A DNA stretch of 32,000 bases from the NCBI GenBank assembly GCA_027460535.1, contig JAPZAR010000004.1, forward strand, positions 1 to 32,000. The letters run 5' to 3'. The position numbers and the translations under genes were made by a program. The notes under the pieces were generated by a model. It saw only the letters and a list, made by a program, of their open reading frames with translations. It ran no database searches and was not told the DNA's origin. Position 1 is the stretch's first letter. Each line of letters begins with the position of its first letter. Source of the DNA: Candidatus Methanoperedens sp. Its GTDB lineage: Archaea > Halobacteriota > Methanosarcinia > Methanosarcinales > Methanoperedenaceae. This document shows, piece after piece, positions 3,576-27,077 of this stretch.

Positions 3576-3724
3576 TTTGTTTTGCTACATTCGGGCGATA
3601 TTCAGATTGTGTTTAAGGAGTCCTCGGACTTAAATCCGAGGTCTTCTATGTTGTGCTCGTAAAAATCCACATATGCCCGCGGGGCTGTGTGCGCATTGCA
3701 GCGGGCGCGACGCTTACAGTCATA

Positions 3725-5080: not shown

Positions 5081-6403
5081 TTATGTATCCTCCTCACTTC
5101 CGTGTTGGGTTTTGTCCGTGAGCGTCTTCATGAAGGCAATAATGGCTGCCTCATCTTTAGAGGTTAGCCCAAGATTTCCAAGCTCGTGTTTATTGACAGT
5201 ATCAGGTACTTCAGGTTCCGGCCATGGTACTCCTTTCCAGCCAGCCCCTGGTACATCTCTTGTATTATAGAAATGTACAATTTCTTCAAGAGACTTGAAG
5301 TAGCCATTGTGCGAGTAAGCTTTCACGAAATCCGGATAGGGTCTTTTGTCCACATTGCGGAGGGTGGGAACTTTCTGCCTGCCCAACTCAGGTTCAAACG
5401 CTGCCGGGTCATAAGTCTTGAGGAATCCTCCCAATCCGTAGTCTATGAAATTCTTGCCATCCGGATTATATTTATCTGGCATTTTATAGAATGGGTTCTC
5501 CGGGTTCTTTGGCACCCCCAGGTTATCGTGTGTGAAGTCTGTAAATAACGGTGGTGGATGACAGGCAACGCAGTTACCTCCTTCTCCAGGCCCTTTAATG
5601 CCATTATTATTGGTTGGAGCCATAAAAAGTTGAAGTCCATTCCATTCCTTATCTGTAAATTTATTTTTTGGGTCTAAGGTTTTTTTATCACCATTTCCAT
5701 TTAAACAAGCCTCTTTTTTACTTGTTCCCAGCTTATCAACGCATGTTTTCAGGTATTCGTCGTACTTGGAAGCAAACTGGCTCACTTCGCTTGATCTCTC
5801 GTATGCTGCGATGGATCTGACAATCCTCTCGTACGTCCCGTTCACATCGTTTACGCAATTCAGAGAACCTTTCCCCCAAACCTTTTCAAATAGTCCGGCA
5901 TATTCCGATTTGCTTACCTTGATGCAAACATCCCTAGCATTTGCATTGTTCTGTTCCAGAGGGTTCAGGAAAGGTCCCTGCGCCTGTTCAGTGAGAGGAT
6001 CCCCCAGAATCGTACCAGTTGCCCTGCTATCCCAGAACATGCCGCCAACCCACGTTTGACCATTATTGTCAAAGTATAAGATCGGGCTTTCTCCGCCATA
6101 TGCAGAAGAAGGTGGCTTACGGTTTCCGAAGAGATTATGTACAGCGCCAGGATAAACCGCTCCATGGGCATTAATCTTTTCATCTGGACCGGTCCATCCT
6201 ACCTCAGAGGAATGACAGAAGGCACACGATTGACCAGGTGGCGTTGAAAGGTCTTTATCAAAAAATAATTGTTTTCCAAGCTTTTCTTTAGGCGTTATCT
6301 TTGATTCTACACTCCTTACATTTGCAGCGCCCATAACAGGAGCGATTGAAGCCACAATTAAGGACAATAACAACAGCGAAATAATCGCTTTAATCGGTTT
6401 CAT
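5081..6403 (-). CDS. Secreted di-haem cytochrome c peroxidase (CCP/MauG family)
   Basis: 440 aa. N-terminal signal/anchor MKPIKAIISLLLLSLIVASIAPVMG. Two CxxCH haem-c motifs (CAFCH, CVACH). Family motifs GMFWD, VPTLRNV and YSHNG. ATG is preceded by GGAGG. Confidence 0.85.
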   Translation of the reverse strand: MKPIKAIISLLLLSLIVASIAPVMGAANVRSVESKITPKEKLGKQLFFDKDLSTPPGQSCAFCHSSEVGWTGPDEKINAHGAVYPGAVHNLFGNRKPPSSAYGGESPILYFDNNGQTWVGGMFWDSRATGTILGDPLTEQAQGPFLNPLEQNNANARDVCIKVSKSEYAGLFEKVWGKGSLNCVNDVNGTYERIVRSIAAYERSSEVSQFASKYDEYLKTCVDKLGTSKKEACLNGNGDKKTLDPKNKFTDKEWNGLQLFMAPTNNNGIKGPGEGGNCVACHPPPLFTDFTHDNLGVPKNPENPFYKMPDKYNPDGKNFIDYGLGGFLKTYDPAAFEPELGRQKVPTLRNVDKRPYPDFVKAYSHNGYFKSLEEIVHFYNTRDVPGAGWKGVPWPEPEVPDTVNKHELGNLGLTSKDEAAIIAFMKTLTDKTQHGSEEDT

Positions 6404-6949
6404 GTTCTATACCTCCCATTCTTATGTTCTATACCAATTATCCCCCAATGCTTGATGCAACTACCATATAACCTATTCAGGCTGAATCCCTAATGCATCT
6501 TGAATCATTTAATATACGGTTCTTCCGTAGCTATTTACCCCATTCAAAGATAGTATTGAAGTGACATTAAGTTTTCTGTTTTACTTCATTCGGCACTTCT
6601 TTCTCTTGGACTATGGCTACTTTTTTCAGGTTTCTGTTCTTCATCTCGTTTATGTATTCTGTCCAATCCAGACTGTAAGTCACCGACCGCCGTTTTGAAA
6701 AAACGGGGTATGGGTGCATGAGTGTAGCTCCATTTTGCTTGTTGTCGGGCTATTTATGAAATAAGGGGCACCGATATAGTTCGAGATATTCTGTTCAGAC
6801 ATTCCCATCACCTTGTTGAAGATCAGGTATTAGGGATTGATATAAGTTTGGATAGAAGGCAGAATCAATACCGCTGTTTGAGACGCGGTACGAACACACG
6901 GGAAATATACGAAAGTACTAATAAGCAGCAAAATGCAAAAGTGGATAAT

Positions 6950-7828
6950 ATGGTAAAAGTAGGTGTTGTCAGAAACAAGGATATAATACAATCCGTGAAA
7001 ACCGCTATCTCGCTTGCTGGAGGCATGAAAATTGAAAAGAATTCCGCTGTTCTTATCAGACCGAATGCGAACACAGCAGATTACCCTCCCGGCTCAACGA
7101 ATCCTGAAGTGTTAAAAGGGGCTATACGCGCGGTTAAAGAATATGATCCTGCAAAGATCATTGTCGCGGAGAAATCAATGACCACGCTGGATACATTGAA
7201 GGTGATGAAGTATCTGGGTCTGTACCAGGCAGCTGAATCGGAAGGAGTGGATGAGATCCTCTCTTTTGATGATGTGGAATGGAAAAAGGTGAGACCTAAA
7301 GAGGCCAGGTCATGGTCGCATGGTTTTTCAGTCCCCGCTATTCTTGATGAAATCGATTACTCGATCGCGCTCCCCATCGTGAAAACGCACTGGACTGCAT
7401 TATTCACCATTGGGTTAAAATCCCAGATAAGCATTACCTCTGACCCTGACAGGAGACAGCTTCCTCACGGACAGAACAACGATGAGCTCTTCGGCAATAT
7501 GATCGCAGAGACTAATCTTGTAAATAAACCCGATTTTTACATTTCAGATGCTACGAAATGTTTTGTAACAGATGGACCCAACATCGGGACACTGCGGGAA
7601 CCAGGTCTTGTCATTGCTTCAGATGATGTTGTAGCGAATGACGTGTTTGGTCTGGCACTTTTAAAGACACTTGGTACGATAGATAAAATACAGAACAGAT
7701 CGGTATGGGAGCAGCCCCAGATAAAAAGGGCAGTAGAACTTGGTCTTGGAGTTAAATGCAGGTCTGATATACAGATCAAAAGCGAAGGTGTGAAAGAGAT
7801 AGAGAATATTGCAGGTAATATTGCATAG
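6950..7828 (+). CDS. DUF362-family protein
   Basis: The MVKVGVV... N-terminus followed by VLIRPNANT...STNPEVLKGAIRAVKE resembles the DUF362 pattern. I place the start at ATG 6950; the 34 upstream codons from the TTG in the track look non-coding. Confidence 0.6.
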   Translation: MVKVGVVRNKDIIQSVKTAISLAGGMKIEKNSAVLIRPNANTADYPPGSTNPEVLKGAIRAVKEYDPAKIIVAEKSMTTLDTLKVMKYLGLYQAAESEGVDEILSFDDVEWKKVRPKEARSWSHGFSVPAILDEIDYSIALPIVKTHWTALFTIGLKSQISITSDPDRRQLPHGQNNDELFGNMIAETNLVNKPDFYISDATKCFVTDGPNIGTLREPGLVIASDDVVANDVFGLALLKTLGTIDKIQNRSVWEQPQIKRAVELGLGVKCRSDIQIKSEGVKEIENIAGNIA

Positions 7829-9164: not shown

Positions 9165-9854
9165 TTAAACGAACGACCTTTTTTTTTCACTCATCTCTTC
9201 ATCAGTTTCACTAATCCTGACGAACTCATAAATTGAGACTGCAATTAAAGAGCCAATAATTGGGGCTATCAAATATATCCATTGATAGTTATATATTCCA
9301 CCAATTATCGCTGGTCCTAAAGACCTGGCCGGATTCATCGATGCCCCGGAAATTGGTCCCCCGAAAAGCGCGTCCATGGCTACGACACCACCGATCGCAA
9401 TACCTGTAACTTCGGGTTTAACCCTGGTATCCGATGCGACTGATATTATTACCAGCATCAGAAAGAAAGTCATTATAACTTCTAAAATAAATGACTGTTC
9501 CCATGAACCATTGGGCAAGGTAGCGCCAAGATTCCTGGCATTACCAAACATTAAATAAAGCACTGCACTGGCAAAGATCGCACCACCTATTTGGGCAGTA
9601 ATGTAAGGGAGCACCTCATTTTTCTTAAACCTCCCGACTGAAGCAAATCCAATCGTCACAGCAGGATTAAAATGGGCTTTAGATACATGTCCTAAAGAAT
9701 ATACCATAACTGCAACTACCAATCCAAATGTAATGGCAATACCAATCACCCCCAATTTTCCTGTTAATCTATCATCAATTATAGCACCCGTTCCAGCAAA
9801 AACCAAAGCAAATGTTCCGATAAATTCTGCTAGGATTTTCTTGAATAAGCTCAT
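9165..9854 (-). CDS. MIP-family channel (aquaporin/aquaglyceroporin; NIP/AqpN-like wording of the NPA boxes)
   Basis: 229 aa with six TM segments. Two NPA boxes: SKAHFNPAVTIGFA and GASMNPARSLGPAI. The start ATG overlaps the stop of the upstream GTPase gene (ATGA, 9851-9854). Confidence 0.88.
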   Translation of the reverse strand: MSLFKKILAEFIGTFALVFAGTGAIIDDRLTGKLGVIGIAITFGLVVAVMVYSLGHVSKAHFNPAVTIGFASVGRFKKNEVLPYITAQIGGAIFASAVLYLMFGNARNLGATLPNGSWEQSFILEVIMTFFLMLVIISVASDTRVKPEVTGIAIGGVVAMDALFGGPISGASMNPARSLGPAIIGGIYNYQWIYLIAPIIGSLIAVSIYEFVRISETDEEMSEKKRSFV

Positions 9855-10954
9855 ACCAAAATCCGATGATAAGGCTTGGGCTGCGGGGGACTGAAACTTT
9901 CTATTTTCAGTGCATTAAGTTTCGTATTATACTTTGAGGATACTATTTCCAGCGAATCCATAATAGATTGTTTCAGCTCTTTGGGACCGATTGCAACACG
10001 GGCATTTATTGCCATCTCTCCGGTTGCCGCTTTATCTGGAATTAAACCTGTGAAGCACACATCCTGATCAAATGAGACAAAGCTGGCTTTTGAAAAATTG
10101 TTCTTGTTGGTGAAATAGAGCTTGACATGGGCTATATCGCCATTGTTTTGTTTTATCATTGTTGCTGCGGTCATCAGAATATCCTTTATGAATTCCTTGA
10201 CTTTGAAATCATGTTTACTATCTACTTTCCACACGCCGTTTAACCATCCCATATTCGCCTCAGCGATGCCATAAACGTTATAGTCAACATGCGGATAATA
10301 ATAGTTTTTGTATTCATCATTCAATATTTTCTCAGCCAGTATATCCATCCCGGTTCCGTTCGCAGCTGAGATCAACATTACTTCAGCCCTGCTGTTGAGT
10401 TTCTTTAATATTCCTTTTATTTGTTCTATTTGAGCAGGGGACACAAGGTCTATTTTGTTCACTGCGAGAACCTCAGCTTCCTGTATCTGATGCGAGAACA
10501 GATATCCTGTGGATGTAACCGGGAAAGCTAAATCCATCTCAGAAGACATATTAAGTATGCGCTTAGCATCCACAAGTACGATGTGCGGCGCTATTTTGAA
10601 AGTATTTTTATAAAATTTTCTTATTGGCATATGCAGGGTCGCTGGGATATCTGTACAGCTTCCAACAGGCTCAGCAAGAATTATATCCGGGTTGGTCTTT
10701 TTGAGGATTTCCTCAGATGATGTCATAAAATCAGGAAACTTACAGCAGAAACATCCACCCAGAACTTCGCCAACTTCAAAGCCGTAATCTTTGACGATTT
10801 TGGTATCCACCAGTTCCTCTCCCTGATCATTCGTGATTATTGCCACACGCTTGCCGTAATCGGTTACTAATTTTTTTCCTATTTCTATTATAGTGCTTGT
10901 TTTACCTGCGCCAAGGAAACCGCCTATTATTCCAAATTTTACCATTTTTTTCAA
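9851..10954 (-). CDS. G3E-family P-loop GTPase, CobW/COG0523-like putative metallochaperone
   Basis: P-loop GGFLGAGKTS, the CxCC motif GGCFCCK ~50 aa later, NKID (NKxD) and a C-terminal domain. TTG 10954 lies 6 nt after GGAGAGGA. ATG 10945 is an alternative start. Confidence 0.75.
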   Translation of the reverse strand: MKKMVKFGIIGGFLGAGKTSTIIEIGKKLVTDYGKRVAIITNDQGEELVDTKIVKDYGFEVGEVLGGCFCCKFPDFMTSSEEILKKTNPDIILAEPVGSCTDIPATLHMPIRKFYKNTFKIAPHIVLVDAKRILNMSSEMDLAFPVTSTGYLFSHQIQEAEVLAVNKIDLVSPAQIEQIKGILKKLNSRAEVMLISAANGTGMDILAEKILNDEYKNYYYPHVDYNVYGIAEANMGWLNGVWKVDSKHDFKVKEFIKDILMTAATMIKQNNGDIAHVKLYFTNKNNFSKASFVSFDQDVCFTGLIPDKAATGEMAINARVAIGPKELKQSIMDSLEIVSSKYNTKLNALKIESFSPPQPKPYHRILV

Positions 10955-11012: not shown

Positions 11013-12311
11013 TCATAGCAACTTCTCCGGCACCACCATTTTTACCGTGTTTGTCAAATTTACCTTCTCCTTTTCTAAATATGATTGTAACTCAGCAATA
11101 TCTGATGAGATCCTTGGCACATTCAAATTCCAATCTGGCCGACAGTAATCTCTGTTTTTAATACCGGAAGCAGGTATCACAACAACGGTTTTTTCAGTCG
11201 GGCTTATTCTGTTATCCTGGCATAGTCTTACCAGTCCGGCAACCGCCAGCCCTCCACTAAAATCTGGAAATATTCCTTCTTTCTTTGCGATCAATTCCGC
11301 ATATTCTACTCCTTCTTTATCCTCAATTGCGATACCATACCCACCATCCTTAATTACTCTAAGGGCATAAAGACCATCGGCTGGATCACCGACTCGTAGA
11401 TTTTCGCAGAGAGTCATGGGATTCCTTAATGGGGTTGGCATTTCTTTTCTGTGAACCAGAGCATCAACAATTGGAGCACAACCACTGGATTGAACTATAA
11501 AAAATTTAGGTAAGTCTTCTATTAGTGCTGATTCGTACAGTTCCTTAAACCCTAAATACATATTATAAGTGAGAGAGCCTGAGCCTTCTGGAATCACAAT
11601 GTTATCAGGTGATTTCCATCCGAGTTGCTCTGCTATCTCGTAGCTCAAAGTCTTATAACCAGAATTAAAATAAGTACGCAAATCCAGGTCAACAATCGGC
11701 AAACCCAGTTCGGGTTTTTCAGCGATTCTTGTAACCAATGTACATGTAGCCGGATCATTCCCATGGCATTGACAGTCTATATCTCCTTCTTGTCTATAAA
11801 CTTTCAATACTTGCGCTCCATACAATAATAGAGGGGATATTATTTCGGTGGGTGTCGTGTCCGGAACAAAGATATAAGATTTTAATCCAGTTTTCGCCGC
11901 ATGCGCTGCTACAGAGTCGGCAATATAATGGGTAGAAGCGCATCCTATTGCAGTGCTGTTAAATTCAATCGCTTTATTTATGGAGATACTTACGGAACGG
12001 TCTTCGTAAGATTGCGTTGGATTAGTACCTTCAAATTTTAAATGAAGATTTTTAATGCCGATAATCTCTCCAAGTCTATTACTTCTGAGTAAAGAAGTCC
12101 ATCCATCATTTAAATCCGCCATTCTTGTATCATTTAAAGGTAGGAACTCCAAATACCTCCACATGCTTGGATAACGACTCTCTATCTTGCTTTTTATGCT
12201 CCTGTCAATGTCTTCTATGCATGTATCCACAGGACCGTAACACTCACTACAGGATGTTATCAAAGCCTCAGGAAAAAGAGTTCCACAATCCCTACATTTT
12301 AATACGCCCAT
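11013..12311 (-). CDS. Threonine-synthase-like (PLP fold-type II) protein with an N-terminal zinc ribbon; the canonical PLP lysine is replaced by Glu
   Basis: Zn ribbon CRDCG...CSECYG. The ThrC block LHLKFEGTNPTQSYEDRSV reads ...NPTGSFKDRG in active enzymes. GCASTHYIAD stands in place of GCASTGNT. Start taken as ATG 12311 (MGVLKC), 2 nt after the MoaD-like stop. The longer track ORF overlaps the upstream gene. Confidence 0.75.
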   Translation of the reverse strand: MGVLKCRDCGTLFPEALITSCSECYGPVDTCIEDIDRSIKSKIESRYPSMWRYLEFLPLNDTRMADLNDGWTSLLRSNRLGEIIGIKNLHLKFEGTNPTQSYEDRSVSISINKAIEFNSTAIGCASTHYIADSVAAHAAKTGLKSYIFVPDTTPTEIISPLLLYGAQVLKVYRQEGDIDCQCHGNDPATCTLVTRIAEKPELGLPIVDLDLRTYFNSGYKTLSYEIAEQLGWKSPDNIVIPEGSGSLTYNMYLGFKELYESALIEDLPKFFIVQSSGCAPIVDALVHRKEMPTPLRNPMTLCENLRVGDPADGLYALRVIKDGGYGIAIEDKEGVEYAELIAKKEGIFPDFSGGLAVAGLVRLCQDNRISPTEKTVVVIPASGIKNRDYCRPDWNLNVPRISSDIAELQSYLEKEKVNLTNTVKMVVPEKLL

Positions 12312-12313
12312 TT

Positions 12314-12604
12314 TTATCCTCCTGCGAATGAAACTAAAAATAATATTTTGTCTCCGTCCATTAATCTGGTCTCGTACTCTCTGATAAGTCGGATGTCCAT
12401 CCCATTTACATAGCATCTGACATGTCTATTGAGGATTGAAGCCTCAGAAGGCAATAGCCTCTTTTTTAAGTTATCGTACTTATTACAGACTTCAACAATC
12501 AATTCGCCGATATTTTTTGCATCTGTACAAATTTTAATTTCCCTATGACCTGTCTCAGAGGAAATTATTCCAAAGAATCTAACAGATACTTCCCTAATCA
12601 TCAT
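12314..12604 (-). CDS. MoaD/ThiS-family ubiquitin-like (beta-grasp) sulfur-carrier-type protein with a C-terminal Gly-Gly
   Basis: ~96 aa with the pattern VRFFG...G...NG...LMDGDKILFLVSFAGG-stop. The start is ambiguous within GTGATGATG (12607/12604/12601), directly after GGAGAGGTGA. The GG codons GGAGGA act as the SD for the next gene. Confidence 0.75.
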   Translation of the reverse strand: MMIREVSVRFFGIISSETGHREIKICTDAKNIGELIVEVCNKYDNLKKRLLPSEASILNRHVRCYVNGMDIRLIREYETRLMDGDKILFLVSFAGG

Positions 12605-13530
12605 CACCTCTCCCTTGAAAGAAGAATCATTGTATAGATAGCATAATATGTATATTCAATATCTGGGGAGCCCATATTGCCAAATCCACCCCAGGGAGTC
12701 TTGAAATTAAGAATGCCGTCGGTGACTTTTTTTGCAGAAATTGAATTTAAAGACCCCAAAAGTGTGAGAGAATTAATTGCACAAAAAATTGAATTTAGGT
12801 CAGTTACTTTAGATCTCAAGTGATTTTTGAAACCAGCGTTTGACTGGCAATTCAATACAAAATCAACAACTTGTTTTTCATCAACCAGACTTAAACGATC
12901 TAATAAATATAATGTAAACAATGCCGATGTCGTCTCAACAAGATTCGGTTGCAAAGATTTATACGATGCCTTAAATCCTGCTTCCGGTGTTTTTAGATTG
13001 ATCAAAAATTCAGTGGTTTTATTAAGAAATTCTTTATCTAATAAATCAGCCTTATCTAGCAGGTACAAAGAGAAAACCCCATAAAATGTTGAGTATGCAG
13101 CGGGTTGTCTTGATTTTCCATCTTTCAGAAAACCTCCCTCTGTTGATTGTAATGAAATAATAAATTCACTGATTTTTTCGCAATCAAGATCATCGAAGTT
13201 ATCAGTTGCTATGGATGTTCCAATTCCACAAAAAGTATGAATTATATCAGGATATGCGCCCTTTCTGTATCCAAAACCACCATTTTTATCATAGCATGAA
13301 AATAAAAAATCTTTAAGGCCAATATGATCTAATATTTTTTCTTTTTCTAACATCTTGAAAGTTTCAATCGCAAAGAATGAATAATATAAATCCGAAGTAG
13401 TTTCGCCCAACCTTCCAACGAATCCACCATCTTTTTGTTGGAGTTTGTTAAATAAATTTTCTGTATTTATCAATTCCTCTTGAAGCTCCGATGATAGTTC
13501 TTTAGCCGTAGCTACGCATAAGCTCTTCAT
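12604..13530 (-). CDS. Prenyltransferase/squalene-cyclase-repeat protein (alpha/alpha toroid resembling the protein prenyltransferase beta subunit)
   Basis: 308 aa with six spaced repeats of the PFTB type: DGGFVGR...DLYYSFFA, NGGFGYR, EGGFLKDG...AYSTFYG, EAGFKAS, NAGFKNH, WGGFGN...YTYYA. The start ATG overlaps the upstream stop (ATGA 13527-13530). Confidence 0.7.
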   Translation of the reverse strand: MKSLCVATAKELSSELQEELINTENLFNKLQQKDGGFVGRLGETTSDLYYSFFAIETFKMLEKEKILDHIGLKDFLFSCYDKNGGFGYRKGAYPDIIHTFCGIGTSIATDNFDDLDCEKISEFIISLQSTEGGFLKDGKSRQPAAYSTFYGVFSLYLLDKADLLDKEFLNKTTEFLINLKTPEAGFKASYKSLQPNLVETTSALFTLYLLDRLSLVDEKQVVDFVLNCQSNAGFKNHLRSKVTDLNSIFCAINSLTLLGSLNSISAKKVTDGILNFKTPWGGFGNMGSPDIEYTYYAIYTMILLSRER

Positions 13531-14753
13531 GAAACCACCTTATTCAATCTGATTCGCTTGATTACTGTATCGATCTCAATATCCGTATTTTTGCATCCTC
13601 CTTTTAGCAAAGGTAAACCCCCGCTTGGTATTTTCAACGAATCTACAATTGGAATGGCTTTCATCAACGAATCCAGGCAGGCAATAGCGAAAAATGCATC
13701 AGCTTTTTTTTCTTTGAGCATTTTTAGCACTACCGTTGCTCCCTCTGAGATATAGATAGTATAACCTAATTCCTTAGCAACCTTAACAATGGGATTAATC
13801 TTGCATTGCTCACTTCCGCATTCCTCGCAGATTAGTTGTAAACCAGTTTCCAGTGGCTCATAGTGGTTTCGGCATTTTTCAGCGTCACGAAGGCAATGAG
13901 GTACTATTAAAACTCTTTTATTATAGGGAATCTTACTGAAGTCTTCACTCAAAATCTGTGTCTTTAATTCTGCAATGGTGAAATCGAGGAACTTTGACGA
14001 TAAACTCAGTTGATTTAGGATTTTAGCTGCGGTTGCATCAACGCAATTAATGTTCTCTTTATTTGTGAAAATGAGTTCACGTATTTTCTGTCTATCTCCC
14101 AGATCAGGTATGTTTGATATCTTCTCTGTTCTGCCAGGATATTCAAAATCCTTTATTGTGAATACTGCTGCTTCTGAAGATCCCTCTCCCTCTCCACCAG
14201 CAACCCATTTTTCCGTAGATTTTGCAAAAATAATGGCTTCTTCAGGACAATCTCTTGCACATGCAGGACAGTTGTCTTTACAACTATATGGATTTGCTAC
14301 TTTTACTCCAACTTCATCCTCCTTGATATCAAATACATCAAAAATACAGAAGTCATAGCAGCTGCCACATCCAGTACATCTGTCATAATCAATTACAGGA
14401 AACCATTCATGAATTTCTTCAATATTTTCCCCATTTCTTGCAGGTAATATATTTTTCAGCTCAGTAATCACTTCTTTCAGACTTAAGTCCCTCATGTTAA
14501 CATGAATCAACTCTCCCTTACATGAGTTGAAAAGCCATTTTTGCGATCTCTGGTAACAAGCGAGTGTTACAATTTTGTCATTTTTCATCAAAGAATTCAA
14601 AAAAGGTAAGCCAAGTTTTGGGCTGCATAGATAAGGATGTTCACTTATGTATTTGACATCGTGGTTCTCTCTTATATATGTACTGAGCTTACTAATGTCT
14701 GCCTGGTTGAAAAACCCTCTTCCTCGACACTGACATATTACAATTCCAACCAT
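13527..14753 (-). CDS. Multi-domain Fe-S protein: Cys-containing N-terminal domain + 2x[4Fe-4S] ferredoxin domain + C-terminal DUF116-like Cys-rich domain
   Basis: 408 aa. Ferredoxin motifs CTGCGSCYDFC and CKDNCPACARDCP. The C-terminal PHCLRD...C...CEECGSEQC...ISEGAT pattern resembles DUF116. The N-terminus IVICQCRG...LC...TLAC resembles the Cys-rich domain of HdrA/Qmo-type proteins (weak). Confidence 0.6.
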   Translation of the reverse strand: MVGIVICQCRGRGFFNQADISKLSTYIRENHDVKYISEHPYLCSPKLGLPFLNSLMKNDKIVTLACYQRSQKWLFNSCKGELIHVNMRDLSLKEVITELKNILPARNGENIEEIHEWFPVIDYDRCTGCGSCYDFCIFDVFDIKEDEVGVKVANPYSCKDNCPACARDCPEEAIIFAKSTEKWVAGGEGEGSSEAAVFTIKDFEYPGRTEKISNIPDLGDRQKIRELIFTNKENINCVDATAAKILNQLSLSSKFLDFTIAELKTQILSEDFSKIPYNKRVLIVPHCLRDAEKCRNHYEPLETGLQLICEECGSEQCKINPIVKVAKELGYTIYISEGATVVLKMLKEKKADAFFAIACLDSLMKAIPIVDSLKIPSGGLPLLKGGCKNTDIEIDTVIKRIRLNKVVS

Positions 14754-14764: not shown

Positions 14765-15988
14765 CTATCTGGATATAATTTTCATTACGCCAAGTAAACC
14801 CAATTTGCGTATTAAGAGTCCTTTTTTCGACATAAAGGGATTGTAAATTTGGCTGTACTCAACACTGGAAAACATATTCTCCATTATTTTTTTTATCTCA
14901 CTATTTTCCTCGGTCAATTCCAATATGGCATCCATCATGCGATCGTAAAATTGTGGGTTATGCCCATACATCATTTTTGCCATTTTGGCAGAATATTTCA
15001 AATCATTATCAATCAATTCAGAGTGACAAAGTTCAGTATAACGCCCCAAGCTTTTCTCGGAGTAATCCCCTTCATTTATCACAGATGCTGCCAACTCCGC
15101 TGATTTTAATGCATAGTAAATACCTTCCCCAGTCATGAAATTAACCAGGCCTCCTGCCTCTCCGACAAGCAAAAAACGATTTCCATGAAGCCTATCCACG
15201 TAATTCTCTGCCATCGGGTGTCCATACAATGATCTCCCATCCATCATCATTTCTTTGGATCCTTTCAATTTTTGGGATATAATTGGATGGTTATGTATTA
15301 TTTCAAAGAGTTTTTCTTTCATTCCTTTTGCATTTTTAGTTTTTTCAGTGAAACCAATACTAACCCCTTCTTTTTTTGGAAAAATCCAGAAATAACCATT
15401 AGTGGTTATATCCCCGTCCCAGTAAATTTCGGGTCCGTCAATTTTCTCTTCTATCGTACTGGAAGGAAGTTCCAACTCATGAGAGATAGTTGTAAAGTAC
15501 CTTGGCGGGGTAACACCAATGAATTTGTAAAGATAAGAAGACGCTCCCCAGGCACCAACCAGAATCTCAGCTTCATATTCCTGACCTCCCTCTAACTTTA
15601 CTGTCACTCCACCATTCAGTTTAATAGAATCTACTTTGCTTTTATCTAAAACTTCAACGCCTTTTTTCTCTGCCCTATCAATTAACCATGCATCAAATTT
15701 ATTCCTGTATACCACTATTCCTTTTTTTCCATCGGATTCAGAGCACGAGACTGAAAACTTCTTGGTTTTTGTATAAAGCGTTTCTTTTGTTACTTCCCTC
15801 TCCACAACCTCGGCCGGTGGCTCTCCGACCAATTTCAGGCAGCGAGTACACATTCCTCCCCCACATGGTTTATACCTGTTCTTACTCTTTCTTTCAACAA
15901 GCAGAACATTAAGACCCTTTTCAGCTAATTTCAATGAAGTGAAACTTCCAGCTGGTCCGCCTCCCACTACAATCGCATCATACTTCAT
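14765..15988 (-). CDS. Geranylgeranyl reductase (GGR)-family FAD-dependent oxidoreductase
   Basis: Rossmann motif YDAIVVGGGPAGS. GGR-family motifs YKPCGGG, YFWIFPK and LLVGEAGG. ATG 15988 lies 5 nt after GGGAGGA. The 15 upstream track codons were discarded. Confidence 0.8.
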   Translation of the reverse strand: MKYDAIVVGGGPAGSFTSLKLAEKGLNVLLVERKSKNRYKPCGGGMCTRCLKLVGEPPAEVVEREVTKETLYTKTKKFSVSCSESDGKKGIVVYRNKFDAWLIDRAEKKGVEVLDKSKVDSIKLNGGVTVKLEGGQEYEAEILVGAWGASSYLYKFIGVTPPRYFTTISHELELPSSTIEEKIDGPEIYWDGDITTNGYFWIFPKKEGVSIGFTEKTKNAKGMKEKLFEIIHNHPIISQKLKGSKEMMMDGRSLYGHPMAENYVDRLHGNRFLLVGEAGGLVNFMTGEGIYYALKSAELAASVINEGDYSEKSLGRYTELCHSELIDNDLKYSAKMAKMMYGHNPQFYDRMMDAILELTEENSEIKKIMENMFSSVEYSQIYNPFMSKKGLLIRKLGLLGVMKIISR

Positions 15989-16136
15989 TTTTATCCTCCC
16001 GAATACTACCTGTGCTCCATATTCTCCAGGCAAACATCATCTTGATTGGGTTATATATTACTAACCACGTATAATATTCCATTAATTCTGCAATATTAAT
16101 TGAATCATATAATCTTGTATAACCTATCTAATATTA

Positions 16137-16988
16137 GTGTGCTTATCATACTCACTGGCCGTGGGATTTAAGGAAACAATCAACCTTTTGAATGCATCAT
16201 CCATAGTGTCGATTTCGGGAGGTCTAAGGTTTTATGTAGCTTTCCTGCTCGCTGGAAAAAAACCTGAGATTTCATTATGTATAGCTGCGATCTTAATGGT
16301 TTACGCAACATACACATTTGATAGAGCAGTTAAAAGGAAAGAAGATGAGATCAACCGAATAGACGAGGAGAATGCCAATAAAAATCTTGCTCTTTTCATA
16401 GTTTTTGTCTCTTCTTCAGCTGCCATTTTGATTCTTGCTGAGAATGGGATATCACCGATCCTAGTTTTTTTCCCCTTTACAATGGGTTTAATGTACAGCA
16501 AAGGAATCAATATCGGAAGTTTTTCACTTAATCTGAAGCGAAGGCTAGGAATTAAAAATTGTTTTGTAGCATTTACGTGGTCATTCACAATCATCGCCCT
16601 GGTGCGTCCTCATGGAAGTCCACAGCTTATTTTAATATTTGTTTTCTTTTTTTCAAAAAGTTTTATAAATACTATTATATTTGATTTCAAAGATGTAACT
16701 GGGGACTCATATGCCGGTCTTACAACTTTCCCACTGCATTTTGGAGAAGCGAGTACAAGGTTAATGCTTCAAATAATACATTCCTCTCTTCATTTAGCCC
16801 TTATTGCGCTTTCTTTATTAAACCTTGCCGAATTTGAATTATTCATTCTATTTTATGGCTGGATAGTGGGAATAATCTATATATTCCTGTACGCCACTTC
16901 TAAAAAAACTATTTCCAGGAGCCTGGTCATACATGGAGAGTGGGCTCACATGCTCTTGTTCAGGAGCTTTGTGGATCAACTTTTTTAG
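16137..16988 (+). CDS. UbiA-superfamily intramembrane prenyltransferase (divergent first Asp-rich motif)
   Basis: 283 aa with ~8 hydrophobic helices. The second motif FDFKDVTGDSYAG followed by LTTFPLHFG is typical of the UbiA family. The first motif is atypical (YTFDRAVKRKEDEIN). The track start is GTG, so the start is uncertain. Confidence 0.7.
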   Translation: MCLSYSLAVGFKETINLLNASSIVSISGGLRFYVAFLLAGKKPEISLCIAAILMVYATYTFDRAVKRKEDEINRIDEENANKNLALFIVFVSSSAAILILAENGISPILVFFPFTMGLMYSKGINIGSFSLNLKRRLGIKNCFVAFTWSFTIIALVRPHGSPQLILIFVFFFSKSFINTIIFDFKDVTGDSYAGLTTFPLHFGEASTRLMLQIIHSSLHLALIALSLLNLAEFELFILFYGWIVGIIYIFLYATSKKTISRSLVIHGEWAHMLLFRSFVDQLF

Positions 16989-17991: not shown

Positions 17992-18312
17992 ATGGGAAAA
18001 ATAGCAGGAAGAAGACATACACGGGAATTCAAAATCTCTATAATTCGGGAACTTGAAAGTGGAAAGAATCCGGTGCAGCTCAGTCGTGAGAACAATATCC
18101 ATCCGACCATGATATTCAGATGGAGATTGGAATATCGAAAAAATCCAGAATCCGCTTTTAGTGGCAATTGTAATACCTATAAAGAAACTGTAAACAATCA
18201 TGAACTGGAAAGGCTTGTCGACAAGCTATATTCTGAGAATGAATTTTCAAAAAAAGTCTTGATTATCTTGGAAAAGAGAATACAGAAGAAACAGATTCCA
18301 AAGGCGGAGTGA
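17992..18312 (+). mobile_element. Solitary IS3-family transposase orfA (HTH subunit); no orfB/DDE domain, so an IS remnant
   Basis: RRHTREFKISIIRELESGKNPVQLSRENNIHPTMIFRWRLEY is the IS3/IS911 OrfA-type HTH. It is followed by a heptad Leu region and an A7G slippery run at 18249-18256. The -1 frame closes after ~24 codons, and a convergent ABC gene starts its 3' end at 18347. Confidence 0.7.
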
Positions 18313-18346: not shown

Positions 18347-19009
18347 TCACGAGTAGTCTATTTTCCCATCTCTGAATTTGATTATTCTATCAACCTTCTC
18401 ACCTATCTCATGGTCATGTGTCACAATAATTATGGTTACCCCATGTTCTATATTCAGTTGTTTGAATAGTGCCATTATTTCATAGGAGGATTTTCTATCA
18501 AGATGACCCGTAGGCTCATCTGCTAACAATATCTTTGGGTTATTTGCCAGTGCCCTTGCAATAGCTACGCGCTGCTGCTGCCCACCTGATAACTCATATG
18601 GCTTATGACGGATGAAATTGCCCAATCCGACATCTTCAAGAAGCTTATTAGCTCTTCTTGACGGGTTTGGTTGGGCAGCTAGCATCATTGGAAAAATCAC
18701 ATTTTCAAGCGCATTTAATTGATTAAATAGGCTAAAAAATTGAAAGACAAAACCAAAATTGTCTAACCGAAATTTTATCTTTTTATCATCATTTAGTTCA
18801 GTTACATTTGTGCCATTTACCAATATCTCACCTGACGTATGCGTATCCAACAATCCTACCATGTTTAAGAATGTTGATTTACCGCTACCGGATGGACCCA
18901 TTATTGCCACAAATTCTCCCTGGTCAATAGAAATATTTATTCCATCCAGAGCCATGACTCTTACCTTTCCCATTAAATAGATTTTTGCGAGATCTTTTGT
19001 CATGATCAT
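18347..19009 (-). CDS. ABC transporter ATP-binding protein (MacB/LolD-type)
   Basis: Walker A GPSGSGKST, signature LSGGQQQRVAIARAL, Walker B LLADEPTGHLD. ATG 19009 lies just after GGTGGTGA and 1 nt after the permease stop. Confidence 0.9.
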   Translation of the reverse strand: MIMTKDLAKIYLMGKVRVMALDGINISIDQGEFVAIMGPSGSGKSTFLNMVGLLDTHTSGEILVNGTNVTELNDDKKIKFRLDNFGFVFQFFSLFNQLNALENVIFPMMLAAQPNPSRRANKLLEDVGLGNFIRHKPYELSGGQQQRVAIARALANNPKILLADEPTGHLDRKSSYEIMALFKQLNIEHGVTIIIVTHDHEIGEKVDRIIKFRDGKIDYS

Positions 19010-19010
19010 T

Positions 19011-20192
19011 CTATTCACCACCAAGGGCCTTTATTAAATTCGTTTTCCCTGCTATCATAGCAGGATAAACACCAGCAAGTAAGGAGATACTGAGGGAAAC
19101 CACAGTGGAGCGCAATAAAAGGTATAGTCCAAACCTTGCACCTAAATAATCTTTGGCAAGAGGATCATAAAAAGGATGAGCTTCGAGGTATCTTATGCCT
19201 ATATAACCAAGTACATCTCCTCCGACAACTCCTGTTATCCCGAAAAACATAGCTTCAATTAAAAAAATAGTAACCAGCAGAGAATTCTTGACCCCAATAG
19301 CTTTCAAGATTCCTATCTGTCTCCTTTTATTAATGATACTTACATAGATTATCACTGCCACTGAGACATTTGCAGCAATAAGGCTGATTAACACGATAGT
19401 GTTTCCTAGTTGCTGAATCGTTGCGGAAGAACTAAGCGTGCTTTCAACTTCATCTTCCCATGTTTTCACATTCGAAACTTCAAGTTCATTTTTAATAGTT
19501 TGTTTATATTCTTGTGCAATATTTTTATCGGTTAACTTGATAAGAATTACAGAAGCTTTATCTTGTATGCCCAGTTCTCGTTTAGCTTCTTCTTCTGGAA
19601 TATATATGGTATTTGTATCTATGTCAGGAATGCCTGTATGAATGATGCCTTTGACGTTGTAACTTTTACTTTTTCCATTCTCAAAAGTTAAGGTGATATC
19701 ATCCCCTGTATTGATACCCAGATCCTCTTGTATTCTGAATGAAATTAAGACTTCATTGCTGTCCCGTGAACTTATAGGCTTACCAATCTCAACCTTTTCT
19801 AAAATTGTAGAGACCTTCTCTTCGTTGTCTGGATTTAAAGCAATTATATTCACAGATTTAGATATCCCCTTTTTTTCAATTACTCCCCCGAATTGCAGAC
19901 GTGATGAATAAGCTACTACATTACTCATACTTTCGAGCTTCATTTCTTTAATGCCAAGTCCTTCAATGTATTGCTTGTCTACATCGGGGTAAATCGTCAT
20001 ATGACCTGTATTTGCGTTGACGCTATTATCTACTAAATCAAGTACAATGCCATCGGATATCCCATTTATAATTATAACATTCGCAGTTCCAAATGATATA
20101 GCAATGAATAGGAACAAAAAAATTTTCTTATCTTGAATTATATCTCTTTTTGCAAAAAAAAAGGCAGTTCGAAGTTCTGAACCAGTGCCCAT
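19011..20192 (-). CDS. ABC transporter permease, FtsX/MacB type
   Basis: An N-terminal TM, a ~250-aa extracytoplasmic domain and three C-terminal TMs (the FtsX-domain pattern). ATG 20192 lies 5 nt after AAGGTGA. GTG 20201 is the alternative start in the track. Confidence 0.8.
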   Translation of the reverse strand: MGTGSELRTAFFFAKRDIIQDKKIFLFLFIAISFGTANVIIINGISDGIVLDLVDNSVNANTGHMTIYPDVDKQYIEGLGIKEMKLESMSNVVAYSSRLQFGGVIEKKGISKSVNIIALNPDNEEKVSTILEKVEIGKPISSRDSNEVLISFRIQEDLGINTGDDITLTFENGKSKSYNVKGIIHTGIPDIDTNTIYIPEEEAKRELGIQDKASVILIKLTDKNIAQEYKQTIKNELEVSNVKTWEDEVESTLSSSATIQQLGNTIVLISLIAANVSVAVIIYVSIINKRRQIGILKAIGVKNSLLVTIFLIEAMFFGITGVVGGDVLGYIGIRYLEAHPFYDPLAKDYLGARFGLYLLLRSTVVSLSISLLAGVYPAMIAGKTNLIKALGGE

Positions 20193-20197
20193 GATAT

Positions 20198-21413: not shown

Positions 21414-22322
21414 TTACCCATAAAGGATTTTTCCAATTTTTCTCATGTTCTCGATCCCTGTAATATCAGTTTCAAAGAGAGGCACCTCTTTCTTAGGCAA
21501 ACCCTTAAATCTCTTATCAATAATGCTCAGGTATTTGTCCTGCGTTGATCTTCGTTTTTCTAAAAACCAATTACCTTTGAGTACTTCGTTTGGTATTATT
21601 TCATTTATTATTAAAGCCTGGACTTTGATATTTAGCTGACTTAAGTTCTCTATAGCCCTCGCAGTTTCTTCAATAGGCAAGTTCTCCGGAAGCATTACAA
21701 GTGTGAATAAAGTGTTCCTTGTATCGGCTAACGTTTTCATTGCAGTCTCATATTTTTTTTGTTCGATTTTCAGGCTTTCTATTGCATTCCCCTCTTCCTT
21801 AATACCCAAAACTTTACTCAGCTCACTTCTATTTTTAAGCTGATTTGAAATATAATTAGCCCAATCAAAAGGCATTGCCAATTCTCTAAGTGTATGACCA
21901 GTTGGAGCTGTATCAAACACAACAACATGATCCTCGTCAGTATTAAGATATTTTACAAACTGATCGAAAGCAGCCATCTCTTCAGCACAGGGCGTATTCA
22001 TGACATCCTTTCCAAACAGGCCTGTGATTTGCTCCACAACCTCATTCAGCCTTGCCTGGAAAATGCCGGATGCCTTCTTAGGATTTATGTTAAGGCCGCA
22101 GAGATTTTTGATTTGTTTTATTTTCGATACCTCTGTTTCTCCAATTTCCTGTTCAAAAATTGCGGATAAGCTCACTGTAGGATCTGTTGCCACTATTAAT
22201 GTCTCATATCCATGGTCAGCAAGCCATATTGCCGTAGAAGACGCCATTGTGGTCTTTCCAACACCGCCTTTTCCGCCAAAGAAAAGAAACTTCTTATTGT
22301 TTATAAAATCTCGCATTATCAT
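21414..22322 (-). CDS. ArsA/Get3 (TRC40)-family P-loop ATPase, single-domain archaeal type
   Basis: Deviant Walker A GGKGGVGKTT and the family signature DTAPTGHTLRE. 302 aa. Confidence 0.85.
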   Translation of the reverse strand: MIMRDFINNKKFLFFGGKGGVGKTTMASSTAIWLADHGYETLIVATDPTVSLSAIFEQEIGETEVSKIKQIKNLCGLNINPKKASGIFQARLNEVVEQITGLFGKDVMNTPCAEEMAAFDQFVKYLNTDEDHVVVFDTAPTGHTLRELAMPFDWANYISNQLKNRSELSKVLGIKEEGNAIESLKIEQKKYETAMKTLADTRNTLFTLVMLPENLPIEETARAIENLSQLNIKVQALIINEIIPNEVLKGNWFLEKRRSTQDKYLSIIDKRFKGLPKKEVPLFETDITGIENMRKIGKILYG

Positions 22323-27076: not shown

Positions 27077-27077
27077 T

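What the first reader, a model, noticed from the sequence alone, without database searches (positions are those of the whole stretch)
11013..12607. ThrC-like protein with Glu at the PLP-lysine position, coupled to a MoaD/ThiS-like Gly-Gly protein
In threonine synthases and their relatives, the Schiff-base lysine sits in ...NPTGSFKDRG.... Here the reverse-strand codons read CCA ACG CAA TCT TAC GAA GAC CGT, giving NPTQSYEDR, so the Lys is replaced by Glu. A single A-to-G change (AAA to GAA) could be a sequencing error. However, the neighbouring substrate loop GCASTGNT is also altered (GCASTHYI), and the phosphate-loop region reads PEGSGSLTYN rather than the usual PVGNAGN. This argues for real divergence into a non-PLP or non-catalytic protein.

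The Zn ribbon (CRDCG...CSECYG) is retained.

Sulfur-carrier proteins are known to pair with PLP beta-replacement enzymes: CysO-CysM in Mycobacterium, and HcyS with an O-acetylhomoserine sulfhydrylase in Wolinella. An inactivated ThrC fold next to a Ubl is therefore unexpected. It may act as a Ubl receptor or scaffold, or carry out new chemistry.
Basis: partly seen in the sequence, partly recalled or inferred. Interest (0 to 1): 0.65.

Follow-up and report, generated by a model that had tools for sequence, protein, structure and literature searches.

The report
Cofactor-lysine-less ThrC-like protein with Ubl partner
A methane-oxidising archaeon (Candidatus Methanoperedens) keeps, under purifying selection, a threonine-synthase-fold protein that has lost the lysine and other residues that hold its vitamin-B6 cofactor, has gained a cysteine/histidine loop, and is still encoded back-to-back with the small sulfur-carrier protein its enzyme ancestors used, so an old enzyme pair seems to have been re-purposed for an unknown job.

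Summary
Window 12311..11013 (-) encodes a 432-aa ThrC-fold protein with Glu103 (GAA, 12005..12003) where threonine synthases have the PLP Schiff-base lysine. Two bases upstream lies a 97-aa ThiS/CysO-like protein ending in Gly-Gly.

It is not a sequencing error or a pseudogene. Six Candidatus Methanoperedens loci carry Glu (GAA in five, GAG in one), and dN/dS is 0.09-0.20 with dS up to 1.3. A second lineage at 47% identity (P0271) also has Glu.

Of 72 positions near-invariant in 113 Lys-bearing relatives, 26 are replaced. These include the residues expected to contact PLP O3' and N1. A conserved loop, C-x-C-H-x6-C, has been inserted.

The nearest Lys-bearing relatives (36-41% identity) sit in ThrC-ThiS-ThiF operons. 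That is the MetM/MetO type of thiocarboxylate-dependent homocysteine synthase, so the Ubl pairing is inherited. The loss of the PLP residues is the new feature.

The pair lies in a seven-gene operon (geranylgeranyl-reductase-like, DUF116-ferredoxin, RabGGTase-beta-like toroid, ThiS, ThrC-Glu, CobW GTPase, NIP-like channel).

Loss of the lysine recurs in this family: 17 of 149 nearest cluster representatives lack it, mostly PadR fusions. Function is inferred, not shown. I rate it a new variant of a known kind, of moderate to high interest.

The parts
11013..12311 (-). ThrC-fold protein lacking the PLP lysine ("ThrC-Glu", 432 aa)
   Evidence: PF00291, 1.3e-49. Best solved matches are threonine synthases. 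AF2 pLDDT 89.7, and the Foldseek top hits are ThrC. It scores below every ThrC equivalog cutoff. Orthologues all start MG/MS-VLKCRDCG.
12003..12005 (-). Glu103 codon (GAA) at the Schiff-base lysine position
   Evidence: Glu in 7/7 clade proteins and in P0271; Lys in 113/113 relatives. The codon is GAA in five loci and GAG in L005.
12240..12296 (-). N-terminal Cys4 Zn ribbon (C6, C9, C21, C24)
   Evidence: Retained, and shared with the Lys-bearing relatives.
11925..11930 (-). His128-Tyr129, replacing the invariant Gly-Asn of the S-T-G-N loop
   Evidence: G and N in 113/113 relatives.
11733..11774 (-). Clade-specific loop CQCHGNDPATCTLV (C180, C182, H183, C190). Residues 183-193 are an insertion.
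   Evidence: Invariant in the clade and conserved as ECHCHANDPASC in P0271.
11394..11396 (-). Arg306, replacing an invariant Ala
   Evidence: codons CGA, CGG, AGG; also Arg in P0271.
11169..11174 (-). Pro380-Ala381, replacing the invariant Thr-Gly of the T-G-x-G motif
12314..12607 (-). ThiS/MoaD/CysO-like ubiquitin-fold protein, 97 aa, C-terminal Gly-Gly (GG codons 12322..12317)
   Evidence: PF02597. Best solved match is CysO, 3dwg_C, 1.1e-6. GG is conserved in all six loci and the stop lies 2-6 nt before the ThrC-Glu start. dN/dS 0.08-0.16.
12604..13530 (-). Alpha-alpha toroid protein resembling the beta subunit of Rab geranylgeranyltransferase
   Evidence: PF00432, 6e-37. PDB 6o60_B, 3.8e-21. 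Absent from L003.
13527..14753 (-). HdrA-like N-domain, 2x[4Fe-4S] ferredoxin and DUF116 protein
   Evidence: Present in all six loci. Elsewhere DUF116 is fused to a polyprenyl synthase (P0252).
14765..16033 (-). Geranylgeranyl-reductase-family flavoprotein. The likely start is ATG at 15988.
   Evidence: TIGR02032, 205.5 bits, above cutoff 158.8. It is not the housekeeping lipid reductase (NF041080, 97.7 against 580). Absent from L003.
16137..16988 (+). UbiA-family prenyltransferase (PRK13591 type), transcribed divergently
   Evidence: Conserved next to the cluster in all loci.
9851..10954 (-). COG0523/CobW-type GTPase with a GCFCC motif
   Evidence: PF02492, 2.5e-28. Motif at residue 68. 87-91% identical among loci. 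58-nt gap after ThrC-Glu in the window, overlapping it in L002.
9165..9854 (-). NIP/AqpN-like major intrinsic protein channel. Its start overlaps the CobW stop by 4 nt.
   Evidence: PF00230. Best solved match is plant NIP2;1, 1.8e-49. A MIP::CobW fusion exists elsewhere (P0136).

Best explanation
**What it is**
The gene pair is a re-purposed descendant of a MetM/MetO-type (or CysM/CysO-type) system. In that system a fold-type-II PLP enzyme takes sulfur from the thiocarboxylated Gly-Gly tail of a ThiS-like carrier.

**What has changed**
- Kept: the ThrC fold, the Zn ribbon, the glycine-rich phosphate loop and the carrier partner.
- Replaced: the residues that anchor PLP (Lys103 to Glu, Asn129 to Tyr, Thr380-Gly381 to Pro-Ala, Ala306 to Arg).
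- Gained: a Cys-x-Cys-His-x6-Cys loop.

**Most likely mechanism (inferred, not shown)**
1. The Ubl is activated and thiocarboxylated by an E1 encoded elsewhere in the genome.
2. Its tail docks in the remodelled former active site.
3. The sulfur is passed to a non-amino-acid acceptor, most plausibly a phosphate or diphosphate ester made by the neighbouring isoprenoid genes.
4. The new acidic, His and Cys residues do the chemistry in place of PLP, possibly with a metal supplied by the co-transcribed CobW GTPase.

**Shown versus inferred**
- Shown: descent from the ThiS-linked clade, loss of the cofactor residues, purifying selection and operon membership.
- Inferred: docking, catalysis, the metal and the acceptor.
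For: - **Real and selected.** Six loci carry the gene. dN/dS is 0.09-0.20 with dS up to 1.3, the same as the neighbouring genes. Synonymous codons are seen at Glu103, Arg306 and Cys180.
- **Active site rebuilt, not decayed.** 26 of 72 positions near-invariant in relatives are replaced. 32 of the 37 replaced or inserted positions are invariant in the clade, against a 62.5% background (binomial P = 0.0012).
- **Core changes are old.** Glu103, the CxCH..C loop, Arg306, Pro380-Ala381, Tyr219 and Glu242 are shared with a 47%-identical second lineage.
- **Ancestry.** The nearest Lys-bearing relatives sit in ThrC-ThiS(-ThiF) operons, one of them with a GHMP kinase.
- **The Ubl is a sulfur carrier by similarity.** It is closest to those ThiS proteins and to CysO. 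Its GG tail is conserved, and it is translationally coupled to ThrC-Glu.
- **Isoprenoid context in every Methanoperedens copy.** UbiA, polyprenyl synthase, a GGR-like gene, RabGGTase-beta-like and SHC-like toroids. DUF116 is fused to a polyprenyl synthase in another genome.
- **CobW.** It has the CxCC motif and directly follows ThrC-Glu.
Against: - There is no biochemical evidence of any kind.
- No E1/ThiF lies in the window or in any related locus.
- The isoprenoid/DUF116 module exists without the pair (L017, L018).
- CobW plus MIP is a module of its own. It occurs as a fusion inside an arsenic-resistance cluster. The neighbours may therefore be co-expressed but mechanistically unrelated.
- The second lineage, P0271, stands alone without ThiS or CobW and lacks the Zn ribbon.
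- The related lysine-less ThrC::PadR fusions point to sensing rather than catalysis.
- AF2 coordinates could not be read. I could not test whether C180, C182, H183 and C190 form one site, or whether it faces the pocket.
- All full-cluster copies come from one genus, so synteny is partly inherited.
Confidence: 0.4

Rival explanations
1. Non-catalytic receptor or sensor (a pseudoenzyme). The former active site now only binds a ligand: the Ubl tail or a small phospho-compound. The protein would act as an adaptor, a protector of the thiocarboxylate, or a signal input to a regulator (FilR1 or PadR genes lie nearby).
For: - All PLP anchors are gone.
- Bulky residues (His128, Tyr129, Arg306, Tyr219) replace small ones at conserved pocket positions.
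- A coherent family of lysine-less ThrC-like proteins fused to PadR DNA-binding domains shows that this fold is re-used as a sensor.
- PadR genes lie next to P0271 and near the L002 cluster.
- A FilR1-type regulator flanks every copy of the cluster.
Against: - The replaced positions and the new Cys/His loop are more conserved than the rest of the protein. New acidic, His and Cys residues look like a built site rather than a filled hole.
- The PadR fusions keep S-T-G-N and T-G-x-G, whereas this clade does not, so the two cases are not equivalent.
- The protein has no DNA-binding domain.
Confidence: 0.3
2. Handling of a thiophilic metal or metalloid. The three-Cys-plus-His loop of ThrC-Glu, the CxCC GTPase and the NIP-like channel would form a unit that binds and moves As(III), Sb(III) or a soft metal. 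The Ubl would supply sulfide or act as a partner. The isoprenoid genes would be neighbours only.
For: - The channel's best solved match is the plant metalloid channel NIP2;1 (1.8e-49), well ahead of AqpM and AqpZ.
- The AqpN/NIP clade carries glycerol and hydroxylated metalloids (bioRxiv 10.1101/351064).
- A MIP::CobW fusion, 45-48% identical to the window's two proteins, lies between ArsD and rSAM-ArsP-ArsM. The ArsM scores 305 bits against a 263-bit cutoff.
- In L017 the MIP neighbours a Cys-rich DGC-domain protein and a DUF116 protein.
- Three-cysteine sites are the usual As(III) ligand set (general knowledge, not tested here).
Against: - The arsenic link rests on one locus, and no ars gene is in the operon itself.
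- The ArsA-like ATPase at 21414..22322 is 5 kb away in a different operon.
- CobW relatives also occur in iron- or methanogenesis-related contexts.
- This reading does not explain why a sulfur carrier and a ThrC fold are needed.
Confidence: 0.15
3. Still a PLP (or PMP) enzyme that works without an internal aldimine, with the substrate amine binding free cofactor directly.
For: - The glycine-rich phosphate loop (G243-S-G-S-L) is retained, along with Ser101, Asp104, Arg105, Ser126, Thr127, Arg212 and Lys220.
- The PadR-fused lysine-less relatives keep the other PLP contacts.
Against: - In this clade the expected O3' partner (Asn129) and the N1 partner (Thr380) are also replaced. An Arg and a His are introduced at invariant small-residue positions.
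- The protein scores below all ThrC and cysteate-synthase equivalog cutoffs, while its Lys-bearing relatives pass TIGR00260.
Confidence: 0.05
4. Artefact: a sequencing error (AAA read as GAA) or a decaying pseudogene.
For: A single A-to-G change would turn Lys into Glu.
Against: - Glu is present in seven cluster representatives from independent assemblies and in six loci, with both GAA and GAG codons.
- There are 25 further replacements at near-invariant positions and an 11-residue insertion.
- The ORFs are intact and dN/dS is 0.09-0.20.
Confidence: 0.01

Closest known systems
MetM/MetO thiocarboxylate pathway to homocysteine (Streptomyces albulus; Hasebe et al. 2024, as cited in bioRxiv 10.1101/2024.10.14.618325 and PMC12172450)
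   Same: A ThrC-homologous protein is encoded next to a ThiS-type Gly-Gly sulfur carrier. The window protein's nearest Lys-bearing relatives have exactly this ThrC-ThiS-ThiF layout. The fold and Zn ribbon are shared.
   Different: - No PLP lysine, and the other cofactor contacts are replaced.
- Extra Cys/His loop.
- Gene order is reversed (ThiS first).
- No E1, Mec or homoserine kinase nearby.
- Embedded in an isoprenoid/CobW/MIP operon rather than a methionine context.
- The S. albulus MetM sequence itself could not be compared here.
CysM/CysO of Mycobacterium tuberculosis (PDB 3DWG)
   Same: The Ubl's best solved match is CysO. The principle is the same: the carrier's tail delivers sulfur into a fold-type-II active site.
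   Different: The partner is ThrC-like, not CysM-like (CysM model only 33.7 bits). It cannot form the aminoacrylate intermediate without PLP.
Threonine synthase ThrC (TIGR00260, NF006050)
   Same: Fold (Foldseek E 2e-28, TM 0.85 to 2zsj) and about 30% sequence identity.
   Different: Fails the lysine, the S-T-G-N loop, the T-G-x-G motif and all HMM cutoffs.
Lysine-less ThrC-like::PadR fusion proteins (uncharacterised; e.g. P0297, P0314, P0352)
   Same: Same Zn-ribbon ThrC-like family with the Schiff-base lysine lost.
   Different: They carry Leu, Ile, Ala, Met, Asn or Arg rather than Glu. They keep S-T-G-N and T-G-x-G, have a C-terminal PadR domain, and lack the Cys/His loop. They form a separate clade.
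Cysteate synthase of methanogens (TIGR03844)
   Same: An archaeal ThrC-like protein with an N-terminal Zn ribbon.
   Different: Only 43.5 bits against a 324.9-bit cutoff, and only over the N-terminal 150 residues. Not a member.

Membership tests
Threonine synthase (ThrC) | Schiff-base lysine in the S-[FY]-K-D-R motif | tested here: not met
   Glu103 aligns to the lysine of 2zsj, 6cgq and 1uim. Lys is present in 113/113 relatives.
Threonine synthase (ThrC) | Score at or above the curated equivalog cutoff | tested here: not met
   TIGR00260: 158.8 against 167.1. NF006050: 200.2 against 303. Lys-bearing relatives score 264-302 on TIGR00260.
Threonine synthase (ThrC) | Fold-type-II two-domain PLP fold | tested here: met
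   AF2 pLDDT 89.7. The Foldseek top 21 hits are threonine synthases.
Threonine synthase (ThrC) | S-T-G-N substrate/O3' loop and T-G-x-G N1 contact | tested here: not met
   S-T-H-Y and P-A-S-G are found instead. The assignment of their roles rests on general knowledge of the fold.
MetM/MetO-type thiocarboxylate-dependent synthase pair | ThrC homologue encoded next to a ThiS-type carrier with C-terminal Gly-Gly | tested here: met
   Relatives show the same adjacency.
MetM/MetO-type thiocarboxylate-dependent synthase pair | PLP-dependent gamma-replacement chemistry (catalytic lysine) | tested here: not met
   Glu103 and loss of the other cofactor contacts.
MetM/MetO-type thiocarboxylate-dependent synthase pair | Carrier-activating E1 (MoeZ/ThiF) available | tested here: inconclusive
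   None in the 32-kb window or in six related loci. The rest of the genome could not be searched.
MetM/MetO-type thiocarboxylate-dependent synthase pair | Homocysteine formation from O-phosphohomoserine | not testable with these tools
   Needs an enzyme assay.
ThiS/MoaD/CysO sulfur-carrier Ubl | Beta-grasp family membership and a C-terminal Gly-Gly | tested here: met
   PF02597: 35.9 bits against 22.5. GG is conserved in six loci. Best PDB hit is CysO. TIGR01687 is just under its cutoff (46.3 against 49.5).
ThiS/MoaD/CysO sulfur-carrier Ubl | C-terminal thiocarboxylate formed in vivo | not testable with these tools
   Needs mass spectrometry of the native protein.
Cysteate synthase | TIGR03844 score at or above cutoff | tested here: not met
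   43.5 against 324.9, N-terminal region only.
COG0523/CobW metallochaperone GTPase (neighbour) | G3E GTPase domain with a CxCC motif | tested here: met
   PF02492, 99.3 bits. GCFCC at residues 67-71.
Pseudoenzyme (conserved catalytically dead homologue) | Catalytic residue lost while the gene stays under purifying selection | tested here: met
   Whether it is truly inactive is not testable here.

The most novel reading that the evidence does not exclude
ThrC-Glu is a new kind of enzyme on a fold-type-II PLP scaffold. It would be a cofactor-free, probably metal-assisted C-S (or metalloid-S) bond-forming catalyst. It would use the thiocarboxylate of its Ubl partner as the nucleophile on a prenyl or alkyl phosphate ester, giving Methanoperedens a sulfur-containing isoprenoid or lipid that has not been described.
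Probability: 0.2. Interest if true: 0.85.

Novelty: new variant of a known kind. Interest (0 to 1): 0.6.

Why it matters
**Enzyme evolution.** Sulfur-carrier Ubls are known to feed PLP enzymes (CysM, MetM and the O-acetylhomoserine sulfhydrylase type). Here the same pair has survived loss of the cofactor site. This tests how far a protein-protein partnership can outlive the chemistry it evolved for. It is also a natural example of an active site being rebuilt rather than decaying.

**Biology of the organism.** Methanoperedens archaea perform nitrate- and metal-dependent methane oxidation. A genus-specific operon that links a sulfur carrier, isoprenoid enzymes, a metallochaperone GTPase and a metalloid-type channel could encode an unknown lipid, cofactor or detoxification route.

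**Annotation.** These proteins are labelled "threonine synthase" in public records, and that label is wrong. About a tenth of the nearest family representatives lack the lysine, so the mislabelling is systematic.

Tried and rejected
- **Sequencing error or pseudogene:** rejected.
- **Cysteate synthase or CysM membership:** rejected on scores.
- **Phosphate-loop decay:** rejected, because the loop matches the Lys-bearing sisters.
- **DUF116 fold.** I predicted the DUF116-ferredoxin protein to see whether it could be the missing E1 or a sulfurtransferase. The model was mediocre (pLDDT 70). Foldseek gave nothing below E 1e-3 except an HdrA-like ferredoxin part. Dead end.
- **Radical SAM link.** The radical SAM gene beside the L002 cluster is not homologous to the one in the arsenic cluster L015. 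It is homologous to the one in L018 (30% identity).
- **More family members.** The metagenome-contig scan found one further locus and the viral-contig scan found none.
- **P0366,** an independent Lys-to-Glu case, has an uninformative context.
- **Rab GGTase Zn ligands in the toroid protein.** Asp and His align but Cys aligns to Tyr. The repeat register is ambiguous, so this is inconclusive.
- **Bacterial promoter/terminator scan:** at background level and not applicable to an archaeon.
- **Literature searches** for this protein, for DUF116 and for lysine-less ThrC-like proteins found nothing relevant. The Hasebe 2024 paper itself is not held.
- **Not possible with these tools:** reading AF2 coordinates to measure Cys-Cys distances, and submitting a Ubl-ThrC fusion for complex prediction.


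Full report
**1. What is in the sequence**

On the minus strand, window 12311..11013 encodes a 432-aa protein. Window 12607..12314 encodes a 97-aa protein that ends FAGG before its stop codon. The mechanical ORF list extends the larger gene to an ATG at 12416, inside the small gene. All orthologues begin MG/MS-VLKCRDCG, so the real start is 12311. That is two bases after the small gene's stop, and the codons GCA GGA GGA for the Ala-Gly-Gly tail form a GGAGG just upstream.

- The larger protein is a PALP-family member (PF00291, 1.3e-49). Its best solved relatives are threonine synthases (2zsj, 8.9e-42).
- In those alignments NPTQSYEDRS lies opposite NPTGSFKDRG. Glu103 (GAA, 12005..12003) therefore occupies the Schiff-base lysine position. 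CASTHYIADS lies opposite CASTGNTSAS.
- The Cys4 ribbon is intact.
- The small protein is ThiS family (PF02597). It falls just below the archaeal MoaD and SAMP1 model cutoffs. Its best solved match is CysO, the sulfur carrier of M. tuberculosis CysM (3dwg_C, 1.1e-6).

**2. It is not an error or a pseudogene**

A search of 5.8 billion proteins returned a tight group of seven cluster representatives (82-100% identity). After them there is a sharp drop to 41% identity or less. All seven have Glu103, and all 113 lower hits have Lys.

The orthologues come from Candidatus Methanoperedens sp. BLZ2, a Methanoperedens MAG, an "uncultured archaeon" assembly and metagenomes.

- Glu103 is encoded by GAA in five loci and GAG in one.
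- Arg306 is encoded by CGA, CGG or AGG, and Cys180 by TGT or TGC.
- Pairwise dN/dS is 0.09-0.20 with dS up to 1.3. This matches the Ubl, CobW, DUF116 and MIP genes of the same operon.

**3. How far the active site has changed**

Among the 113 Lys-bearing relatives, 72 positions are at least 97% conserved. The clade keeps 46 of them and has replaced 26. The replacements include:

- K103E, G128H, N129Y, L130I
- Y175E, D176G, N179D, R180C
- N208D, N210D, Y215F, E217S
- S304N, A306R, I307V
- T380P, G381A

An 11-residue insertion (183-193) creates the loop C180-Q-C182-H183-G-N-D-P-A-T-C190.

Of the 37 replaced or inserted positions, 32 are invariant within the clade, against 62.5% for the protein as a whole (binomial P = 0.0012).

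The clade is 36.5% identical on average to relatives that are 57% identical to each other. A burst of change was therefore followed by constraint.

From general knowledge of fold-type-II enzymes, the Asn of S-T-G-N contacts PLP O3'. The Thr of T-G-x-G contacts the pyridine N1. Both are gone.

The protein falls below every ThrC equivalog cutoff and far below the cysteate synthase cutoff. Its Lys-bearing relatives pass TIGR00260. The AF2 model is confident (pLDDT 89.7) and is a ThrC fold. I could not read coordinates, so the position of the new loop relative to the pocket is untested.

**4. Where it came from**

Four independent loci of the closest Lys-bearing relatives (37-41% identity) all have a ThiS gene immediately downstream. 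Three also have a ThiF-type E1, and one also has a GHMP kinase.

This is the layout of the MetM/MetO thiocarboxylate route from O-phosphohomoserine to homocysteine. That route was described in Streptomyces albulus by Hasebe et al. 2024. [quoted passage not shown]

The window's Ubl is 27-32% identical to those ThiS proteins. The Ubl pairing is therefore inherited from a working enzyme-carrier pair. What is new is that the pair persists after the cofactor site was lost.

**5. A wider family, and recurrent loss of the lysine**

A search of 1.84 billion cluster representatives found a second lineage, P0271, at 47% identity. It is the mutual best match of the window protein.

- P0271 shares Glu103 (PTHSLEDR), the loop (ECHCHANDPASC), Arg306, Pro380-Ala381, Tyr219 and Glu242.
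- It keeps Gly128-Asn129 and Glu217.
- The Lys-to-Glu change and the Cys/His loop are therefore old. The His-Tyr replacement came later.
- P0271 lacks the Zn-ribbon region. It stands next to a PadR gene and an ABC exporter, with no ThiS or CobW, and abuts about 9 kb of 60%-GC DNA in a 33%-GC background. It may be a relic.

Among the 149 nearest representatives, 17 lack the lysine.

- Thirteen are 466-502-aa ThrC-like proteins fused to a PadR winged helix. They have Leu, Ile, Ala, Met, Asn or Arg at the site but keep S-T-G-N and T-G-x-G.
- P0366 (Glu), P0400 (Ala) and P0415 (Met) are independent losses, because their nearest neighbours have Lys.

I found no literature on any of these.

**6. Genomic context**

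The window's genes run with overlaps or short gaps:

- GGR-like flavoprotein (16033..14765)
- DUF116 protein with a ferredoxin domain (14753..13527)
- RabGGTase-beta-like toroid (13530..12604)
- Ubl
- ThrC-Glu
- CobW-type GTPase (10954..9851)
- MIP channel (9854..9165)

A divergent UbiA-family prenyltransferase and a FilR1-type regulator lie upstream.

All six Methanoperedens loci keep UbiA, FilR1, DUF116-ferredoxin, Ubl, ThrC-Glu, CobW and MIP. A polyprenyl diphosphate synthase is present in all loci except the window. The GGR-like and toroid genes are missing in L003. An SHC-like toroid gene changes position between loci.

Outside the genus the pieces occur separately.

- L018 has ferredoxin domain, radical SAM, DUF116::polyprenyl synthase fusion, toroid and squalene-hopene-cyclase-like genes.
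- L017 has DGC, MIP (52% identity), DUF116-ferredoxin (42%), GcvH-like and SHC-like genes.
- L015 has a MIP::CobW fusion between ArsD and rSAM-ArsP-ArsM.
- The MIP's best solved match is the plant metalloid channel NIP2;1. This fits the AqpN/NIP clade.

The Ubl-ThrC-Glu pair thus looks like a genus-specific addition to an older DUF116/terpenoid/MIP neighbourhood. CobW plus MIP is a module in its own right. No E1 is present in any of these loci.

**7. Most likely mechanism and its rivals**

I favour (0.4) continued partnership. The Ubl is thiocarboxylated by an E1 encoded elsewhere. Its tail docks in the remodelled pocket. The sulfur passes to a non-amino-acid acceptor, most plausibly a phosphate or diphosphate ester from the isoprenoid genes. 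The new acidic, His and Cys residues would do the chemistry, perhaps with a metal. Every step beyond ancestry, residue loss, selection and operon membership is inference.

The rivals are:

- A non-catalytic receptor or sensor (0.3). The PadR fusions and the bulky replacements support it.
- A thiophilic metal or metalloid handling unit with CobW and the NIP-like channel (0.15). The ars-cluster fusion supports it, but that is a single locus.
- Residual PLP or PMP chemistry without an internal aldimine (0.05).
- An artefact (0.01).

**8. Verdict**

The finding is a new variant of a known kind: a MetM/MetO- or CysM/CysO-type pair that has lost its cofactor site and been rebuilt. It is confined to Methanoperedens plus one divergent lineage. 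Interest is 0.6. The case is clean and testable for enzyme and pseudoenzyme evolution, and it points to a possible unknown sulfur-isoprenoid or metalloid pathway. No function has been shown, however, and lysine loss in this family turns out to be recurrent.

Noticed in passing
window 1-3852: A ribosomal RNA operon: the 3' part of 16S (1-680, cut by the window edge), tRNA-Ala (775-847), 23S (1005-3579) and 5S (3731-3852). The 23S match spans the whole 2987-position archaeal model in only 2575 nt, about 400 nt short.
   Followed up: no
window 9165-9854; L015 7001-8791: The MIP channel is most similar to the plant NIP2;1/Lsi1 metalloid channel, not to AqpM or AqpZ. In another archaeal contig a MIP::CobW fusion protein (P0136, 596 aa) lies between ArsD and a rSAM/SPASM-ArsP-ArsM set. 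This suggests a COG0523 GTPase working with an AqpN-type channel in arsenic handling.
   Followed up: partly
L018 5601-12338: A conserved module in a 4.1-Mb genome: ferredoxin-domain protein, radical SAM (30% identical to the one beside the L002 cluster), DUF116::polyprenyl synthase fusion (P0252), RabGGTase-beta-like toroid, and a squalene-hopene-cyclase-like protein. This ties DUF116 to isoprenoid metabolism.
   Followed up: partly
P0297, P0314, P0352 and ten similar proteins: A family of roughly 470-500-aa ThrC-like proteins fused to a C-terminal PadR winged helix. They have Leu, Ile, Ala, Met, Asn or Arg in place of the PLP lysine but keep the other cofactor motifs. They are likely ligand-sensing regulators. 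I found them undescribed in the held literature.
   Followed up: partly
L019 1-10284 (also L020, L021): The second lineage of the Glu plus CxCH..C family (P0271) is a 338-aa form without the Zn ribbon. Its 5' side abuts about 9 kb of 60%-GC DNA full of Pfam-less ORFs inside a 33%-GC genome, which looks like an inserted foreign element.
   Followed up: partly
window 16033-16137 and 17992-18312: This copy of the cluster lacks the polyprenyl diphosphate synthase and the SHC-like toroid gene that other Methanoperedens copies carry between or around UbiA and the GGR-like gene. A small HTH_Tnp_1 transposase ORF lies just beyond the FilR1 regulator.
   Followed up: no
window 18347-22322: A minus-strand operon: an ArsA/Get3-like ATPase (302 aa), two proteins with no Pfam match (118 and 293 aa), and a MacB/FtsX-type ABC exporter. 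Homologues of the exporter lie next to P0271 in L019.
   Followed up: no
window 12604-13530: A stand-alone homologue of the beta subunit of eukaryotic Rab geranylgeranyltransferase (E 4e-21), with no alpha subunit nearby. In the best repeat register the Zn-ligand Asp and His align, but the Cys aligns to Tyr.
   Followed up: partly
window 5081-6403, 6848-7828, 25775-28753: Other genes in the window: a di-haem cytochrome c peroxidase/MauG-family protein, a DUF362 protein, and a ModE/TOBE regulator with a molybdate/tungstate-type ABC importer.
   Followed up: no
L008 3835-7535: In one Lys-bearing relative's locus, the ThrC-ThiS pair lies directly after a UbiA prenyltransferase and a divergent polyprenyl synthase. 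This may hint that the isoprenoid association predates loss of the lysine, or it may be coincidence.
   Followed up: no
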